This document shows, piece by piece, positions 1 through 45,018 of a stretch of DNA of 64,000 nucleotides. Position 1 is the stretch's first letter. Every line of letters starts with the position of its first letter. Both the position numbers and the translations under genes were made by a program. Source of the DNA: the human T2T-CHM13v2.0 reference genome, Homo sapiens; NCBI RefSeq assembly GCF_009914755.1, contig NC_060930.1; one strand, written 5' to 3'. The notes under the pieces are model-generated. The model was given only the letters and a program-made list of their open reading frames with translations, had not been told where the DNA came from and made no database searches.

Positions 1-1650
1 CCTCAAGGAAATAACTTCTCAGTGTTCCATCTGCTATTCTACTACTCCTCAGGGATTATTCAGGCCCCCTCCCTTCCCTACACATCAAGCTCGAGGATTT
101 GCCCCACCCAGGACTGGCAAATTAGCTTTACTCAACATGCCCCGAGTCGGATAACTAAAATACCTCTTAGTCTAGGTAGACACTTTCACTGGATAGGTAG
201 AGGCCTTTCCTACAGGGTCTGAGAAGGCCACCACAGTCATTTCTACCCTTCTGTCAGACATAATTCCTCAGTTTAGCCTTCCCATCTCAATACAGTCTGA
301 TAACAGACCAGCCTTTATTAGTCAAATCAGCCAGCAGTTTTTCAGGCTCTTAGTATTCAGTGAAACCTTTATATCCCTCACGGTCCTGCGTCTTCAAGAA
401 AAGTAGAATAGACTAAAGGTCTTTTAAAAACACACCTCACCAAGCTCAGCCACCAACTTAAAAAGGACTGGACAATACTTTTACCACTTTCCCTTCTCAG
501 AATTCAGGCCTGTCCTCAGAATGCTACAGGGTACAGCCCATTTAAGCTCCTGTATAGACGCTCCTTTTTATTAGGCCCCAGTCTCATTCCAGACACCAGA
601 CCGACTTTGACTGTGCCCCAAAAAAAATTGTCATCCCTACTATCTTCTGTCTAGTCATACTCCTATTCACCGTTCTCAACTACTCATACATGCCTTGCTC
701 TTGTTTACACTGCCGGTTTACACTGTTTCTCCAAGCCATCACAGCTGATATCTCCTCCTGCTATCCCCAAACTGCCACTCTTAACTCTTGAAGTAAATAA
801 ATAATCTTTGCTGGCAGGACTATGCTGAATCTCCTTAGGCACTCTCTAATCAGATATCCTGAGTCATCCCAATTCTTAGAACTTTTATACCTGTTTTTCT
901 CCTTCTGTTATTCCATTTAGTTTTTCAATTCATCCAAAACCGTATCCAGGCCATCACCAATCATTCTATACGACAAATGTTTCTTCTAACATCCCCACAA
1001 TATCACCCCTTACCACAAGACCTCCCTTCAGCTTAATCTCTCCCACTCTAGGTTCCCACACTGCCCCTAATCCCGCTTGAAGCAGCTCTGACAAACATCG
1101 CCCATTCTCTCTCCATACCACTCCCTAAAAATTTTCGCTGCCCCAACACTTCAACACTATTTTGTTTTATTTTTCTTATTAATGTAAGAAGTCAGGAATG
1201 TCAGGCCTCTGAGCCCAAGCCAAGCCATCGCATCCCCTGTGACTTGCACGTATAAGCCCCGATGGCCTGAAGTAACTGAAGAATCACAAAAGAAGTGAAT
1301 ATGCCCTGCCCCACCTTAACTGATGACATTCCACCACAAAAGAAGTGTAAATGGCCGTTCCTTGCCTTAAGTGATGACATTACCTTGTGAAAGTCCTTTT
1401 CCTAGCTCATCCTGGCTCAAAAAGCTCCCCCACTGAGCACCTTGGGACCCTTGCCCCTGCCCACCAGAGAACAACCCCCTTTGACTGTAATTTTCCTTTA
1501 CCTTCCCAAATCCTATAAAATGGCCCCACCCCTATCTCCCTTGGCTGACTCTCATTTCGGACTCAGCCCGCCTGCATCCAGGTGAAATAAACAGCCATGT
1601 TGCTCACACAAAGCCTGTTTGGTGGTCTCTTCACACGGACGCGCATGAAA
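1..1650 (+). mobile_element. HERV-H provirus #1, 3' part (integrase remnant, env-deleted 3' region, 3' LTR7); 5' part lies outside the window
   Basis: 1-1198 is colinear with 27945-29139 and 43421-44565; purine tract AAGAAGTCAGGAA precedes an LTR running TGTCAGGCC...GCGCATGAAA. Confidence 0.97.
1199..1650 (+). promoter_or_regulatory. LTR7 (LTR7up-like), 3' LTR of provirus #1
   Basis: TGTCAGGCCTCTGAGCCCAAGCC start, two ACAAAAGAAGTG blocks, TATAAAA, AATAAA, CATGAAA end. Confidence 0.95.
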
Positions 1651-1803
1651 CCGGCCTTGCAGAGAGTCCCTGTTTCCCTCTTTTCCTTTTCACCCAAGAA
1701 ACGCTGCCCTTCTCACCCTTCAAATAGTGTGCGAGCCTAATTTTTTGTGGTCGTGTGATGAGGACCCCATCTTTAGTTGAACTAAGGAAAGTGTCTTACA
1801 ACA
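1651..1803 (+). mobile_element. 3' end of an older ERV1-class LTR (MER50/MER51-like) into which HERV-H #1 inserted
   Basis: ...GCGAGCCTAATTTTTTGTGGTCGTGTGATGAGGACCCC...TAGTTGAACTAAGG...CTTACAACA resembles an ERV1 LTR U5 terminus ending in CA; family uncertain. Confidence 0.65.
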
Positions 1804-2067
1804 GAAGTGCCAGAGAGGTGGCCAGCTTGGTATAGAAGTGACCCTTGCTGCTATCCTGGAGGTCAGCTGTAACAGCGGAAGGGGTGGTGGGGCTTGTTGG
1901 GGCTTGAGAAGGCTGAAGACAGCCTGTGCCACACTGCCTGCTGTGATTTCTGAGGACCCAGAGTGCCATGAGAGATGATCTCCATCAATCACAGAATAGG
2001 CAAAAAACATAGTTTCCAGAAAGAGAAAAAAAATGGACCCAAACCACATATAAAGAGGTAGACCTCA

Positions 2068-2363
2068 GGCCGGGCATGGTGGCTCATGCCTGTAATCCCA
2101 GTACTTTGGGAGGCCGAGGTGGGCAGAGTCAGGAGTTTGAGACCAGCCTGATTAACATGGTGAAACCCTTTCTCTACTAAAAATACAAAAATTAGCCGGG
2201 TGTAGTGGTGGGTGCCTGTAATCCCAGCTACTCGGGAGGCTGAGGAAGGAGAATCGCTTGAACCTGGGAGGCGGAGGTTGCACTGAGCCGAGATGGTGCC
2301 ATTGCACTCCAGCCTGGGCAACAGAGGGAGGCTCCATCTAAAATAAAAATAAAAATAAAAAAA
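2068..2363 (+). mobile_element. AluS
   Basis: GGCCGGGCATGGTGGCTCA start, dimeric body, A-rich tail; small left-arm deletion. Confidence 0.95.
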
Positions 2364-41808: not shown

Positions 41809-41819
41809 TCTCCTCGGAA

Positions 41820-43930
41820 GCCCCATAGACCATCACGGACGCCGAGCTTTAGGTAGCTCTCACAGTGGAAGGTAAGTCCATCCCCTTCTTAATCAATATG
41901 GAGGCTACCCACTCCACATTACCTTCTTTTCAAGGGCCTGTTTCCCTTGCCTCCATAACTGTTGTGGATATTGACAGCCGGGCTTCTAAACCTCTTAAAA
42001 CTCCCCAACTCTGGTACCAACTTAGACAACACTCTTTTATGCACTCTTTTTTAGTTATCCCCACCTGCCCAGTTCCCTTATTAGGCCGAGATATTTTAAG
42101 CAAATTATCTGCTTCCCTATTCCTGGATTACAGCTGCGTCTCATTGCTGCCCTTCTTCCCAATCCAAAGCCTCCTTTGCGTCCTCCTCTTGTATCCCCCA
42201 AACTTAACCCACAAGTGTAAGATACCTCTACTCCCTCCTTGGTGACCGATCATGCACCCCTTACCATCTCATTAAAACCTAATCACCCTTACCCCACTAA
42301 ATGCCAGTATCCCATCCCGCAGCATGCTTTGAAAGGATTAAAGCCTGTTATCACTGGCCTGCTACAGCATGGCCTTTTAAAGCCTATAAACTCTCCTTAC
42401 AATTCCCCCATTTTACCTGTCCTAAAACCAGACAAGCCTTACAAGTTAGTTCAGAATCTGCGCCTTATCAACCAAATTGTTTTGCCTATCCACCCCGTGG
42501 TGCCAAACCCATATACTCTCCTATCCTCAATACCTGCCTCTACAACCCATTAGTCTGTTCTAGATCTCAAACATGCTTTCTTTACTATTCCTTTGCACCC
42601 TTAATCCCAGCCTCTCTTTGCTTTCACTTGGACTGACCCTGACACCCATCAAGCTCAGCAAATTACCTAGGCTGTACTGCCGCAAAGCTTCACAGACAGC
42701 CCCCATTACTTCAATCAAGCCCAAATTTCATCCTCATCTGTTACCTATCTCGGCATAATTCTCAGAAAAACCTACATGCTCTCCCTGCCAATCGTGTCCG
42801 ACTGATCTCTCAAACCCCAGCACCTTCTATAAAACAACAACTCCTTTCCTTCCTTGGCATGGTTAGCGTGGTCAGAATTCTTACACAAGAGCCAGGACCA
42901 CACCCTGTAGCCTTTCTGTCCAAACAACTTGACCTTACTGTTTTAGCCTAGCCCTCATATCTGTGTGCAGCGGCTGCCACTGCTTTAATACTTTTAGAGG
43001 CCCTCAAAATCACAAAGTATGCTCAACTCACGCTCTACAGTTCTCATAACTTCCAAAATCTATTTTCTTCCTCATACCTGATGCATATACTTTCTGCTTC
43101 CTGGCTCCTTCAGGTGTACTCACTCTTTGTTAAGTCCCACAATTACCATTGTTCCTGGCCCAGACTTCAATCCGGCCTCCCACATTATTCCTGATACCAC
43201 ACCTGACCCCCATGACTGTATCTCTCTGATCCACCTGACATTCACCCCATTTCCCCATATTTCCTTCTTTCCCGTTCCTCACCCTGATCACGCTTGATTT
43301 ATTGATGGTGGTTCCACCAGGCCTAATCGCCACACACCAGCAAAGGGAGGTTATGCTATAGTACAAGCCACTAGCCTGCCTCTTAGAACCTCTCATTTTC
43401 TTTCCATCATGGAAATCTATCCTCAAGGAAATAACTTCTCAGTGTTCCATCTGCTATTCTACTACTCCTCAGGGATTATTCAGGCCCCCTCCCTTCCCTA
43501 CACATCAAGCTCGAGGATTTGCCCCCATCCAGGACTGGCAAATTAGCTTTACTCAACATGCCCGAGTCAGGAAGCTAAAATACCTCTTAGTCTAAATAGA
43601 CACTTTCACTGAATAAGTAAAGGCCTTTCCTACAGGGTCTGAGAAGGACACCACAGTCATTTCTTCCATTCTGTCAGACATAATTCCTCAGTTTAGCCTT
43701 CCCACCTCTATACAGTCTGATAACAGATGAGCCTTTATTAGTCAAATCAGCCAAGCATTTTCTCAGGCTCTTAGTATTCAGTGACTGACTAATGGTCTAT
43801 TAAAAACACACCTCACCAAGCTCAGCCACCAACTTAATAAGGACTGGACAATACTTTTACCACTTTCCCTTCTCAGAAGTCAGACATGTAATGCTACAAG
43901 GTATAGCCCATTTAACCTCCTGTATGGATG
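41820..43930 (+). pseudogene. pol: HERV-H pro-pol remnant
   Basis: FLINMEATHS...PLLGRDILSKL (protease); QYPIPQ...SPYNSPILPVLKPDKPYKLVQNLR (RT N-terminus); stops and deletions. Confidence 0.92.
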
Positions 43931-44565
43931 CTTCTTTTTATTAGGCCCCAGTCTCATTCCAGACAAAAGACTAACTTCGACTGTGCCCCAGAAAACTTGT
44001 CATCCCTACTATCTTCTGTCTAGTCATACTCCTATTCACGTTCTCAACTACTCATACATGCCCTGCTCTTGTTTACACTGCCGGTTTACACTGTTTCTCC
44101 AAGCCATCACAGCTGATATCTCCTGTGCTATCTCCAAAGTGCCACTCTTAACTCTTGAAGTAAATAAATAATCTTTGCTGGCAGGACTATGCTGAACCTC
44201 CATAGGCACTCTCTAATTAGATGTCCTAGGTCCTCCCAATTCTTAGTGCTTTTATACCTGTTTTTCTCCTTCTCTTATTCCATTTAGTTTTTCAATTCAT
44301 ACAAAACTGTATCCAGGCCATCACCAATCATTCTATACGACAAATATTTCTTCTAACATCCCCACAATATCACCCCTTACCACAAGACCTCCCTTCAGCT
44401 TAATCTCTCCCACTCTAGGTTCCCACACCACCCCTAATCCCGCTTGAAGCAGCCCTGAGAAACATCGCCCATTCTCTCTCCATACCACCGCCCAAAAATT
44501 TTCGCCGCCCCAAGACTTCAACACTATTTTGTTTTATTTTTCTTATTAATATAAGAAGGCAGGAA

Positions 44566-45018
44566 TGTCAGGCCTCTGAGCCCAAGCCAAGCCATCGCAT
44601 CCCCTGTGACTTGCACGTATAAGCCCCGATGGCCTGAAGTAACTGAAGAATCACAAAAGAAGTGAATATGCCCTGCCCCACCTTAACTGATGACATTCCA
44701 CCACAAAAGAAGTGTAAATGGCCGGTCCTTGCCTTAAGTGATGACATTACCTTGTGAAAGTCCTTTTCCTAGCTCATCCTGGCTCAGAAAGCTCCCCCAC
44801 TGAGCACCTTGCGACCCCTACTCCTGCCCACCCGAGAACAAGCCCCCTTTGACTGTAATTTTCCTTTACCTAGCCAAATCCTATAAAACAGCCCCACTCT
44901 TATCTCCCTTCACTGACTCTGTTTTCGGACTCAGCCCGCCTGCACCCAGGTGAAATAAACAGCCATGTTGCTCACACAAAGCCTGTTTGCTGTTCTCTTT
45001 ACAGGGACGCGCATGAAA
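44566..45018 (+). promoter_or_regulatory. 3' LTR7 of provirus #3
   Basis: direct repeat preceded by purine tract AAGAAGGCAGGAA. Confidence 0.95.

What the first reader, a model, noticed from the sequence alone, without database searches (positions are those of the whole stretch)
1199..45018. Position-matched LTR variant sharing between different proviruses suggests gene conversion
The two LTRs of a provirus are identical at integration, so variants should group by provirus. Here they group across proviruses. The 3' LTRs of #1 and #3 share C at LTR offset 61 (1260, 44627) and A at offset 205 (1404, 44771), where the other three LTRs, including #3's own 5' LTR (39313 A, 39457 G), differ. The 5' LTRs of #2 and #3 share CAGCCTACCTG (TA at 24119-24120 and 39623-39624) while all 3' LTRs have CAGCCCGCCTG. 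The 3' LTRs of #2 and #3 share G at offset 221 (29361, 44787). #1 and #2 share AAGAAGTCAGGAA before the 3' LTR and CCCCTATCTCCC within it. Inference: repeated ectopic conversion between aligned neighbouring proviruses, which would also invalidate LTR-pair dating here.
Basis: partly seen in the sequence, partly recalled or inferred. Interest (0 to 1): 0.8.

Follow-up and report, generated by a model that had tools for sequence, protein, structure and literature searches.

The report
Neighbouring HERV-H LTRs exchanged short tracts
Three old endogenous retrovirus copies lying close together on human chromosome 6 appear to have copied short pieces of their terminal repeats into one another, a known process seen here in a new place.

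Summary
The window holds three separately integrated, same-strand retroviral proviruses with HERV-H features. P1 starts 4.2 kb upstream of the window. Each has its own target-site duplication and unique spacers.

Two shared-variant sets are too rare genome-wide to be recurrent mutation:
- **P1 and P3 3' LTRs:** C at column 62 occurs in 2 of 495 exact 23-mers genome-wide, and both are these two LTRs. They are identical over 165 bp.
- **P2 and P3 5' LTRs:** TA occurs in 15 of 2225 copies. TA together with a pyrimidine 10 bp upstream occurs only in these two.

Among 56 other family LTRs, these pairs are each other's unique nearest neighbours in those segments. Old, short-tract non-allelic gene conversion between neighbouring LTRs is therefore the best reading, at about 0.75.

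Internal sequence shows no cluster affinity, so whole-provirus register pairing is not shown. LTR-pair dating is biased, not voided. Ectopic LTR conversion is already published, so this is a new example of a known kind.

The parts
1..1650 (+). 3' part of provirus P1. The whole element spans window -4191 to 1650, and its 5' LTR lies at -4191 to -3740, outside the window.
   Evidence: fetched the upstream 10 kb. One search aligned P2 to -4191..1650 (90.3% over 5899). One search shows a target-site duplication of CTGGC / CCGGC.
1199..1650 (+). P1 3' LTR (452 bp)
   Evidence: It differs from its own 5' LTR at 16 of 453 columns and shares 9 rare alleles with it.
23748..29591 (+). Provirus P2 (5844 bp): 5' LTR 23748-24200, 3' LTR 29140-29591
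   Evidence: The flanks read ...TATAG| and |ATAGG..., a 4-bp match (ATAG). TTTGGTGCCGTGAC follows the 5' LTR. A gag zinc-knuckle ORF lies at 25911-26306 and an RT remnant at 26747-27157.
39252..45018 (+). Provirus P3 (5767 bp): 5' LTR 39252-39704, 3' LTR 44566-45018
   Evidence: It has a perfect 5-bp target-site duplication, GTAAA / GTAAA.
1193..1444 (+). Candidate conversion tract E2, P1 3' LTR side. It pairs with 44560-44811 and carries 62C (1260), 206A (1404) and 228T (1426).
   Evidence: 1193-1357 is identical to 44560-44724 (165 bp), and there are 2 mismatches in 252 bp; the 62C 23-mer occurs in 2 of 495, both here; the two are mutual unique nearest neighbours, with d=0 in columns 1-150.
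44560..44811 (+). Candidate conversion tract E2, P3 3' LTR side
   Evidence: for 44605-44805, the best genome-wide matches after self are the P1 3' LTR (354 bits) and then the P2 3' LTR (350 bits), followed by a plateau at 341 bits. There were 1568 candidates and 40 were scored. P3's own 5' LTR is not in the top 40.
24002..24157 (+). Candidate conversion tract E1, P2 5' LTR side. It pairs with 39506-39661. The minimal tract is 24109-24120 (column 362 plus TA).
   Evidence: 1 mismatch in 156 bp against 14 in the other 297 columns (Fisher p=0.024). P2's own 3' LTR differs at 11 sites in this stretch. Searches give the genome-wide counts.
39506..39661 (+). Candidate conversion tract E1, P3 5' LTR side (minimal tract 39613-39624)
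   Evidence: the P3 5' LTR ties for best genome-wide match to 24002-24200 with a chr20 copy (342 bits; 2367 candidates, 40 scored).

Best explanation
Three proviruses with HERV-H features integrated separately, on the same strand, within 49 kb. Later, at least two short non-crossover repair events (non-allelic gene conversion) copied LTR sequence between neighbours.

- **E2** lies between the 3' LTRs of P1 and P3, 43 kb apart. The tract is at least 145 bp (columns 62-206) and at most about 250 bp (window 1193-1444 paired with 44560-44811).
- **E1** lies between the 5' LTRs of P2 and P3, 15.5 kb apart. The tract is at least 12 bp (columns 362-373) and at most 156 bp (24002-24157 paired with 39506-39661).

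Shown: the shared alleles, their genome-wide rarity, the mosaic nearest-neighbour pattern and the intact target-site duplications.

Inferred: the repair mechanism, the direction of transfer, and the timing (after integration, followed by 1-2 further substitutions per tract).

Inferred and weak: a break in a 3' LTR prefers another 3' LTR as template because homology continues into the adjacent internal sequence.

The remaining shared sites are ordinary family polymorphism and CpG decay.
For: **Independent integrations**
- Each provirus has its own target-site duplication (GTAAA/GTAAA, ATAG, CTGGC/CCGGC).
- The spacers share only dispersed short repeats.
- The two LTRs of each provirus should therefore have been identical at integration (established retroviral replication; my own knowledge).

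**E2: P1 3' LTR and P3 3' LTR**
- The 62C 23-mer has 2 genome-wide hits, both in these two LTRs. The A version has 493 hits.
- Window 1193-1357 is identical to 44560-44724 over 165 bp.
- In columns 1-246 the two LTRs differ at 2 sites, but each differs from its own partner at 10 and 8 sites.
- In unselected 150-column windows they are mutual unique nearest neighbours among 56 other LTRs. The rest of the P1 3' LTR is uniquely nearest to its own 5' LTR.
- Genome-wide, the two best matches to P3 3' LTR columns 40-240 are the other two 3' LTRs of the cluster.
- The pair shares 5 rare alleles against 0.70 expected (Poisson 7.6e-4, about 0.009 after correcting for 12 pairs).

**E1: P2 5' LTR and P3 5' LTR**
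- TA occurs in 15 of 2225 copies.
- A pyrimidine at column 362 occurs in 46 copies, and the combination with TA occurs only in these two LTRs.
- They differ at 1 site in 156 bp, against 11 and 9 differences from their own partners. The next-best family copies differ at 3 sites.

**Controls**
- The cluster's largest pairwise count of shared rare alleles is 4; 0 of 156 control triples reach it.
- The cluster has 5 shared alleles that are discordant within a provirus; 0 of 156 control triples reach that.
- The cluster's total pairwise sharing is 13; 1 of 156 control triples reaches it.

**Replication and precedent**
- In an adjacent chr1 pair, the L058 5' LTR carries two rare alleles of both L057 LTRs that its own 3' LTR lacks.
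- Ectopic LTR conversion is documented, with minimum tracts of 3-86 bp and maximum tracts averaging 99 bp (PMC4921805; abstract and passages).
Against: **The statistical excess is moderate.**
- Counted as unique alleles, the cluster has 5 against a control mean of 1.4 and a maximum of 4. The 156 triples come from only 11 proviruses, so they are not independent.
- Scaling for the cluster's higher mutation load gives about 2 expected.
- A back-of-envelope uniform-rate estimate gives about 0.2 chance-shared transversions over the 12 cross pairs. 62C alone is therefore not decisive.

**Some choices were made after seeing the data.**
- The segments used were picked after seeing the alignment.
- In one search the P3 5' LTR only ties with a chr20 copy.

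**The tracts are not clean.**
- E2 has mismatches at columns 160 and 222.
- If 57A/62C came from P3 while 206A came from P1, E2 needs two events or later mutation.

**There is no wider signal.**
- Internal sequence shows no cluster affinity.
- 500-bp window identities between cluster members exceed those to chr1 copies by at most 1-2 points.

**The data are limited.**
- 29 of the 51 reference LTRs were selected as the nearest copies to the P2 5' LTR, so the reference set is biased.
- No ape orthologue or second human haplotype could be examined.
Confidence: 0.75

Rival explanations
1. No transfer took place. All cross-provirus sharing is parallel mutation at hot spots plus polymorphism already present in the source lineages.
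For: **Many shared sites are CpG transitions or common alleles.**
- Columns 265, 325, 347, 440 and 444 are CpG transitions.
- 228T is 105 of 337, 206A is 38 of 470 and 222G is 17 of 337.
- The CpG at columns 372-373 is decayed in more than half of the first 100 rows.

**The statistics leave room for chance.**
- Control triples reach 4 unique discordant shared alleles, against 5 here.
- Internal-region sharing matches the chance expectation.
Against: - 62C is a transversion seen in 0 of 493 copies outside the cluster.
- TA needs two substitutions and occurs in 13 of 2223 copies outside the cluster. With 362Y it occurs nowhere else.
- The rare alleles sit inside contiguous stretches of near-identity that break the LTR pair relationship.
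- The P1 3' / P3 3' pair shares 5 rare alleles against 0.70 expected.
Confidence: 0.17
2. The shared variants are assembly or polishing artefacts, created when reads from one provirus were placed on another.
For: No call gives direct support. Repeats are where such errors occur in general (my own knowledge).
Against: - The copies differ by 5-10% and sit in unique flanks 10-22 kb apart, so long reads should place them unambiguously (inference).
- The tracts themselves carry later private differences at columns 160, 222 and 362.
Confidence: 0.03
3. P2 is a hybrid made by unequal crossing-over between P3 and P1, or the cluster arose by segmental duplication. Similarity of 5' to 5' and 3' to 3' would then be by descent.
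For: In parts, the P2 5' LTR resembles the P3 5' LTR, and the P2 3' end shares AAGAAGTCAGGAA and 335C with P1.
Against: - P2 has its own flanks and a 4-bp matching duplication.
- The spacers 1651-23747 and 29592-39251 share no homology beyond dispersed short repeats.
- The P2 3' LTR lacks 8 P1-lineage alleles.
- Genome-wide, the internal P2 ends are not nearest to P1 or P3.
Confidence: 0.01
4. Conversion did occur, but each LTR was converted from an unlinked third copy elsewhere in the genome rather than from its neighbour.
For: Donors on other chromosomes are documented for Y-linked LTRs (PMC4921805, passages).
Against: No other copy in this genome carries the 62C 23-mer or the combination 362Y+TA, so no candidate donor exists outside the cluster.
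Confidence: 0.04

Closest known systems
Ectopic gene conversion among human LTR elements (Trombetta et al. 2016, Sci Rep, PMC4921805; abstract and passages read)
   Same: Short tracts are copied between similar LTRs (minimum 3-86 bp; maximum tracts averaging 99 bp). LTRs end up as a patchwork, and linked donors are favoured. The paper includes conversion between the LTRs flanking one HERV.
   Different: That study used Y-chromosome LTRs and population phylogeny to catch recent events. Here the evidence is paralogue comparison in one autosomal assembly, the events are older, and the partners are position-matched LTRs of different neighbouring proviruses. That paper's text does not contain the term LTR7.
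LTR-tree discordance in HERV-K and other HERVs, taken as a sign of ectopic recombination or conversion (Johnson & Coffin 1999; Hughes & Coffin 2005; Kijima & Innan 2010; all recalled, not read here)
   Same: The logic is the same: paired LTRs should be sisters, and departures indicate sequence exchange and bias LTR dating.
   Different: As I recall them, those studies rely on cross-species orthologues, which I could not use. I have not checked what they say about HERV-H.
Gene conversion between the two directly oriented HERV15 proviruses flanking AZFa on Yq (Bosch et al. 2004; recalled, not read here)
   Same: Directly repeated proviruses on one chromosome exchange sequence without crossover.
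   Different: As I recall it, those proviruses are hundreds of kb apart, the conversion hot spot is internal, and crossover there causes deletion. Here the tracts lie in LTRs and no rearrangement is seen.
Tandem ERV-V envelope genes ENVV1/ENVV2 homogenised by gene conversion (PMC2567338; search listing and abstract start only)
   Same: Neighbouring retroviral copies exchange sequence.
   Different: That case concerns coding env genes under selection. Here the sequence is non-coding LTR and there is no sign of homogenisation overall.

Membership tests
Endogenous retroviral provirus of the HERV-H / LTR7 group | Two direct LTRs of about 450 bp flanking about 5 kb of internal sequence, with a short target-site duplication | tested here: met
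   There are three elements of 5767-5844 bp. The duplications are GTAAA/GTAAA, ATAG (4 bp) and CTGGC/CCGGC (4 of 5).
Endogenous retroviral provirus of the HERV-H / LTR7 group | Retroviral gag and pol remnants inside the element | tested here: met
   Zinc knuckle PF00098 scores E=2.5e-5 in 25911-26306. RVT_1 PF00078 scores E=3e-6, at 27.5 bits just under its 29.6-bit cut-off, in 26747-27157. Only 7 stop-to-stop frames of 90 aa or more lie on either strand of P2's internal region, so the genes are broken.
Endogenous retroviral provirus of the HERV-H / LTR7 group | Primer-binding site for tRNA-His and an LTR matching the LTR7 reference | not testable with these tools
TTTGGTGCCGTGACTCGGAT follows the 5' LTRs. 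No repeat library was available. The family is large: 2225 motif hits.
Non-allelic (ectopic) gene conversion between paralogous repeats | A contiguous tract in which the acceptor matches a paralogue better than its expected closest relative, with the normal relationship restored outside the tract | tested here: met
   The P1 3' LTR is nearest to the P3 3' LTR in columns 1-150 (d=0, unique) and nearest to its own 5' LTR in columns 151-453. The P2 and P3 5' LTRs differ at 1 site in columns 255-410, against 11 and 9 from their own partners. One search gives the identical runs.
Non-allelic (ectopic) gene conversion between paralogous repeats | The transferred alleles are too rare in the family to be explained by recurrence | tested here: met
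   62C is 2 of 495. TA is 15 of 2225 and, with 362Y, 2 of 2225. The criterion is not met for 222G, 206A, 228T and 335C.
Non-allelic (ectopic) gene conversion between paralogous repeats | No crossover: flanks and copy order are unchanged | tested here: met
   The target-site duplications are matched within each provirus, and the spacers are unique.
Non-allelic (ectopic) gene conversion between paralogous repeats | The event is placed on a lineage: the ancestral state is seen in orthologues or other haplotypes, and donor and acceptor are polarised | not testable with these tools
   No primate orthologues or other human assemblies are held. The direction remains ambiguous, because 57A/62C point from P3 to P1 while 206A points from P1 to P3.
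   no cluster member appears among the 40 best genome-wide matches to the P2 internal ends; only 7 doubly-shared private alleles lie in about 4.9 kb of internal sequence, about what chance predicts; no high-identity blocks.

The most novel reading that the evidence does not exclude
Clusters of same-strand HERV-H proviruses may act as small hot spots of germline exchange. Breaks in an LTR would be repaired from the position-matched LTR of a neighbour, because homology runs on into the provirus body. Promoter and enhancer alleles of these LTRs would then spread locally between elements. The LTRs here are annotated as RefSeq enhancers in the hub's table. Two further observations hint that this is general rather than a one-off: the chr1 neighbours L057/L058 and the linked chr10 LTRs.
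Probability: 0.15. Interest if true: 0.5.

Novelty: new member of a known kind. Interest (0 to 1): 0.3.

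Why it matters
This is a clean worked example of how LTR-pair dating and LTR phylogenies of HERV-H can be distorted by exchange between nearby copies. About 3-7 of the 16-25 pair differences per provirus lie in the candidate tracts.

It also shows that genome-wide allele counts in a complete assembly can separate real transfer from CpG recurrence. 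Because these LTRs are annotated as enhancers, transfer could move regulatory variants between neighbours.

It does not change what is known about the mechanism.

Tried and rejected
1. **Resampling test.** It gave 24 site hits against 13 expected, with apparent P=0. I rejected it as stated, because reciprocal sharing is counted twice in the observed value but not in the null. It was replaced by the provirus-triple control.
2. **Sliding 500-bp identity along whole proviruses.** There are no blocks of near-identity. Cluster pairs exceed chr1 copies by at most 1-2 points.
3. **Genome-wide nearest-neighbour searches with internal P2 segments.** No cluster member is in the top 40.
4. **Scan for alleles shared by exactly two cluster proviruses and absent from 20 chr1 proviruses.** It found 11 sites in all, 4 of them in LTRs. 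The internal count fits chance.
5. **Unequal-crossover or hybrid origin of P2 and segmental duplication.** Both are rejected on the target-site duplications and the unique spacers.
6. **Using 15 of the 20 chr1 proviruses as LTR controls.** Their LTRs are other subfamilies (77-90% identity, or only partial matches, to the query). They were dropped from the LTR statistics, and 8 of the 20 LTRs fetched were dropped for the same reason or for insertions.
9. **Literature on this locus.** 'HERVH' plus 'AKAP7' found 0 papers. 'HERV-H', 'LTR7' and 'gene conversion' found 9 papers, none of which, by title or abstract start, describes this cluster.

Full report
**What is there.**
A self-comparison of the window and an alignment show five LTR copies of about 452 bp, at 1199-1650, 23748-24200, 29140-29591, 39252-39704 and 44566-45018. 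They belong to three same-strand elements.

Fetching the 10 kb upstream shows that the first element is complete. It spans window -4191 to 1650, with a 5' LTR at -4191 to -3740. The three elements are:
- P1: 5842 bp, target-site duplication CTGGC/CCGGC.
- P2: 5844 bp, duplication ATAG.
- P3: 5767 bp, duplication GTAAA/GTAAA.

Each 5' LTR is followed by TTTGGTGCC.... The spacers share only dispersed short repeats. P2 carries a gag zinc knuckle and an RT remnant. These are three separate integrations, so each LTR pair should have been identical when it integrated (established retroviral replication; my own knowledge).

**Checking the observation.**
Among the six LTRs, 58 of 453 columns vary.
- P1's two LTRs behave as expected, with 16 differences and 9 shared rare alleles.
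- The P2 pair differs at 24 columns and the P3 pair at 25. No column groups either pair.
- The closest cross pair is the two 5' LTRs of P2 and P3, with 15 differences.

The missing within-pair grouping is not odd in itself. Control proviruses elsewhere also show 0-1 shared private alleles (L058 and L052), as expected when the source was close to the family's centre. Unrelated copies are 95-97% identical to the P2 5' LTR, which is closer than its own partner at 94.7%.

**Are the shared alleles rare?**
Exact-pattern counts over the whole assembly give these frequencies.

| Allele | Count genome-wide |
|---|---|
| 62C | 2 of 495; both are the 3' LTRs of P1 and P3 |
| TA at columns 372-373 | 15 of 2225 |
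| Pyrimidine at column 362 | 46 copies |
| 362Y + TA together | 2 copies; both are the 5' LTRs of P2 and P3 |
| 222G | 17 of 337 |
| 206A | 38 of 470; several proviruses carry it in both LTRs |
| 228T | 105 of 337 |
| 335C | 5 of 38 sampled copies |
| AAGAAGTCAGGAA variant | 13 copies |

Four of the AAGAAGTCAGGAA copies outside the window also carry 206A, so the variant marks a lineage. Columns 265, 325, 347, 440 and 444 are CpG transitions.

**Tract structure.**
- Window 1193-1357 is identical to 44560-44724 over 165 bp. Over 252 bp there are 2 mismatches.
- In columns 1-246 the 3' LTRs of P1 and P3 differ at 2 sites, but each differs from its own partner at 10 and 8 sites.
- In unselected 150-column windows, these two LTRs are mutual unique nearest neighbours among 56 other LTRs for columns 1-150. 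The rest of the P1 3' LTR is uniquely nearest to the P1 5' LTR. That is a mosaic.
- Genome-wide, the best matches to P3 3' LTR columns 40-240 after self are the P1 3' LTR and then the P2 3' LTR, ahead of a plateau of unlinked copies. There were 1568 candidates, of which 40 were scored, and P3's own 5' LTR is not among those 40.
- For the 5' LTRs, 24002-24157 and 39506-39661 differ at 1 site in 156, against 14 in the other 297 columns (Fisher p=0.024). Each differs from its own partner at 11 and 9 sites there, and the next-best family copies differ at 3.
- Genome-wide, the P3 5' LTR ties for best match with a chr20 copy.

**Statistics and their limits.**
- Among 695 unrelated LTR pairs, the mean number of shared rare alleles is 0.12 and the maximum is 2. 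The P1 3' / P3 3' pair shares 5 against 0.70 expected for its mutation load (Poisson 7.6e-4, about 0.009 after correcting for 12 pairs).
- With 51 reference LTRs and 156 triples drawn from 11 control proviruses, no triple reaches the cluster's maximum pair value (4) or its 5 unique discordant shared alleles. One triple reaches its total of 13.
- The triples are not independent.
- 29 of the 51 reference copies were selected as the nearest copies to the P2 5' LTR.
- After scaling for load, the unique-allele excess is about 5 against 2.
- A uniform-rate estimate allows about 0.2 chance-shared transversions across the 12 cross pairs.
- My first resampling test double-counted reciprocal sharing, and I discard its P value.

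**What is not seen.**
- Internal sequence next to the LTRs has no cluster member among its 40 best genome-wide matches.
- Sliding identity shows no near-identical blocks.
- Alleles shared by exactly two cluster proviruses and absent from 20 chr1 proviruses number 7 in about 4.9 kb of internal sequence. That is about what chance predicts.

Exchange is therefore confined to short LTR tracts. Pairing of whole proviruses in register is not demonstrated. With two firm events, position matching has a chance probability of about 1 in 4.

**Explanation.**
The best reading is at least two old, short-tract, non-crossover conversions between neighbouring LTRs:
- E2 between the 3' LTRs of P1 and P3.
- E1 between the 5' LTRs of P2 and P3.

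Each was followed by one or two further substitutions, at columns 160 and 222 for E2 and at column 362 for E1. These sit on a background of ordinary family polymorphism and CpG decay.

The direction is unresolved. 57A/62C look P3-derived, because the P1 5' LTR has T at column 57. 206A looks P1-derived, because both P1 LTRs carry it.

No other copy in the genome could have been the donor. Any alternative history in which P2 and P3 integrated with 362Y+TA in both LTRs still needs conversion to restore G and CG in both 3' LTRs.

**Comparison with what is known.**
Ectopic conversion among human LTRs, including patchwork LTRs and tract lengths like these, is published (PMC4921805). Its effect on LTR dating is discussed for plants (PMC7251063; listing and abstract start only). 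I also recall, without having read them here, primate HERV studies by Johnson & Coffin, Hughes & Coffin, and Kijima & Innan.

Two searches found nothing in print on this locus: 0 papers for 'HERVH' plus 'AKAP7', and none of the 9 papers from 'HERV-H', 'LTR7' and 'gene conversion', by title or abstract start.

This is therefore a new example of a known process. Dating is biased upward by roughly 3-7 of the 16-25 differences per pair, not invalidated.

**Hints of generality.**
- On chr1, the 5' LTR of L058 carries two rare alleles of both LTRs of its neighbour L057, which its own 3' LTR lacks.
- Three of the eight most-sharing 'unrelated' control pairs turned out to be linked copies.

Noticed in passing
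window -4191 to 45018 (G000:C6:132489810-132539018): Three full-length same-strand proviruses (six LTRs) lie within 49.2 kb. The family's LTR motif occurs about once per 1.4 Mb (2225 hits in 3.117 Gb). Other tight groups appear in the first 100 rows, on chr1 at 53.31-53.33 Mb, 72.81-72.83 Mb and 112.82-112.84 Mb.
   Followed up: partly
L057 and L058 (G000:C1:72813226-72827533): These are two adjacent minus-strand proviruses. The L058 5' LTR shares the rare alleles 235T and 269C with both LTRs of L057, but not with its own 3' LTR. This is a second candidate for exchange between neighbours.
   Followed up: partly
L007 and L008 (G000:C10:6797264-6797716 and 6629706-6630158): Two 3' LTRs 168 kb apart on chr10 share the rare alleles 138G and 150C. 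I did not determine whether this reflects exchange or a local duplication.
   Followed up: no
G000:C6:132699010-132699262, minus strand, about 160 kb beyond the P3 end: Another copy carries both P1-lineage markers, 206A and the AAGAAGTCAGGAA variant.
   Followed up: no
L005 (G000:C23:93149325-93150239): Two LTR copies lie head to tail, about 10 bp apart, at the 5' end of a chrX provirus.
   Followed up: no
window 24109 and 39613 (LTR column 362): The two 5' LTRs carry two different transversions (C and T) at the same CpG guanine, 10 bp upstream of the shared TA. One shared change followed by a C/T transition would explain this.
   Followed up: partly
window 1255, 23804, 29196, 39308, 44622 (LTR column 57): Five of the six LTRs carry A at column 57, where 38 other family copies show T 17, C 15 and A 4. 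Only the P1 5' LTR has T. Either the three proviruses come from one minor lineage, or this site was also homogenised.
   Followed up: no
window 24637-25054 and 40141-40513: Short internal tandem-like repeats in the leader/gag region differ in copy number between the proviruses. They also vary in other genomic copies.
   Followed up: no
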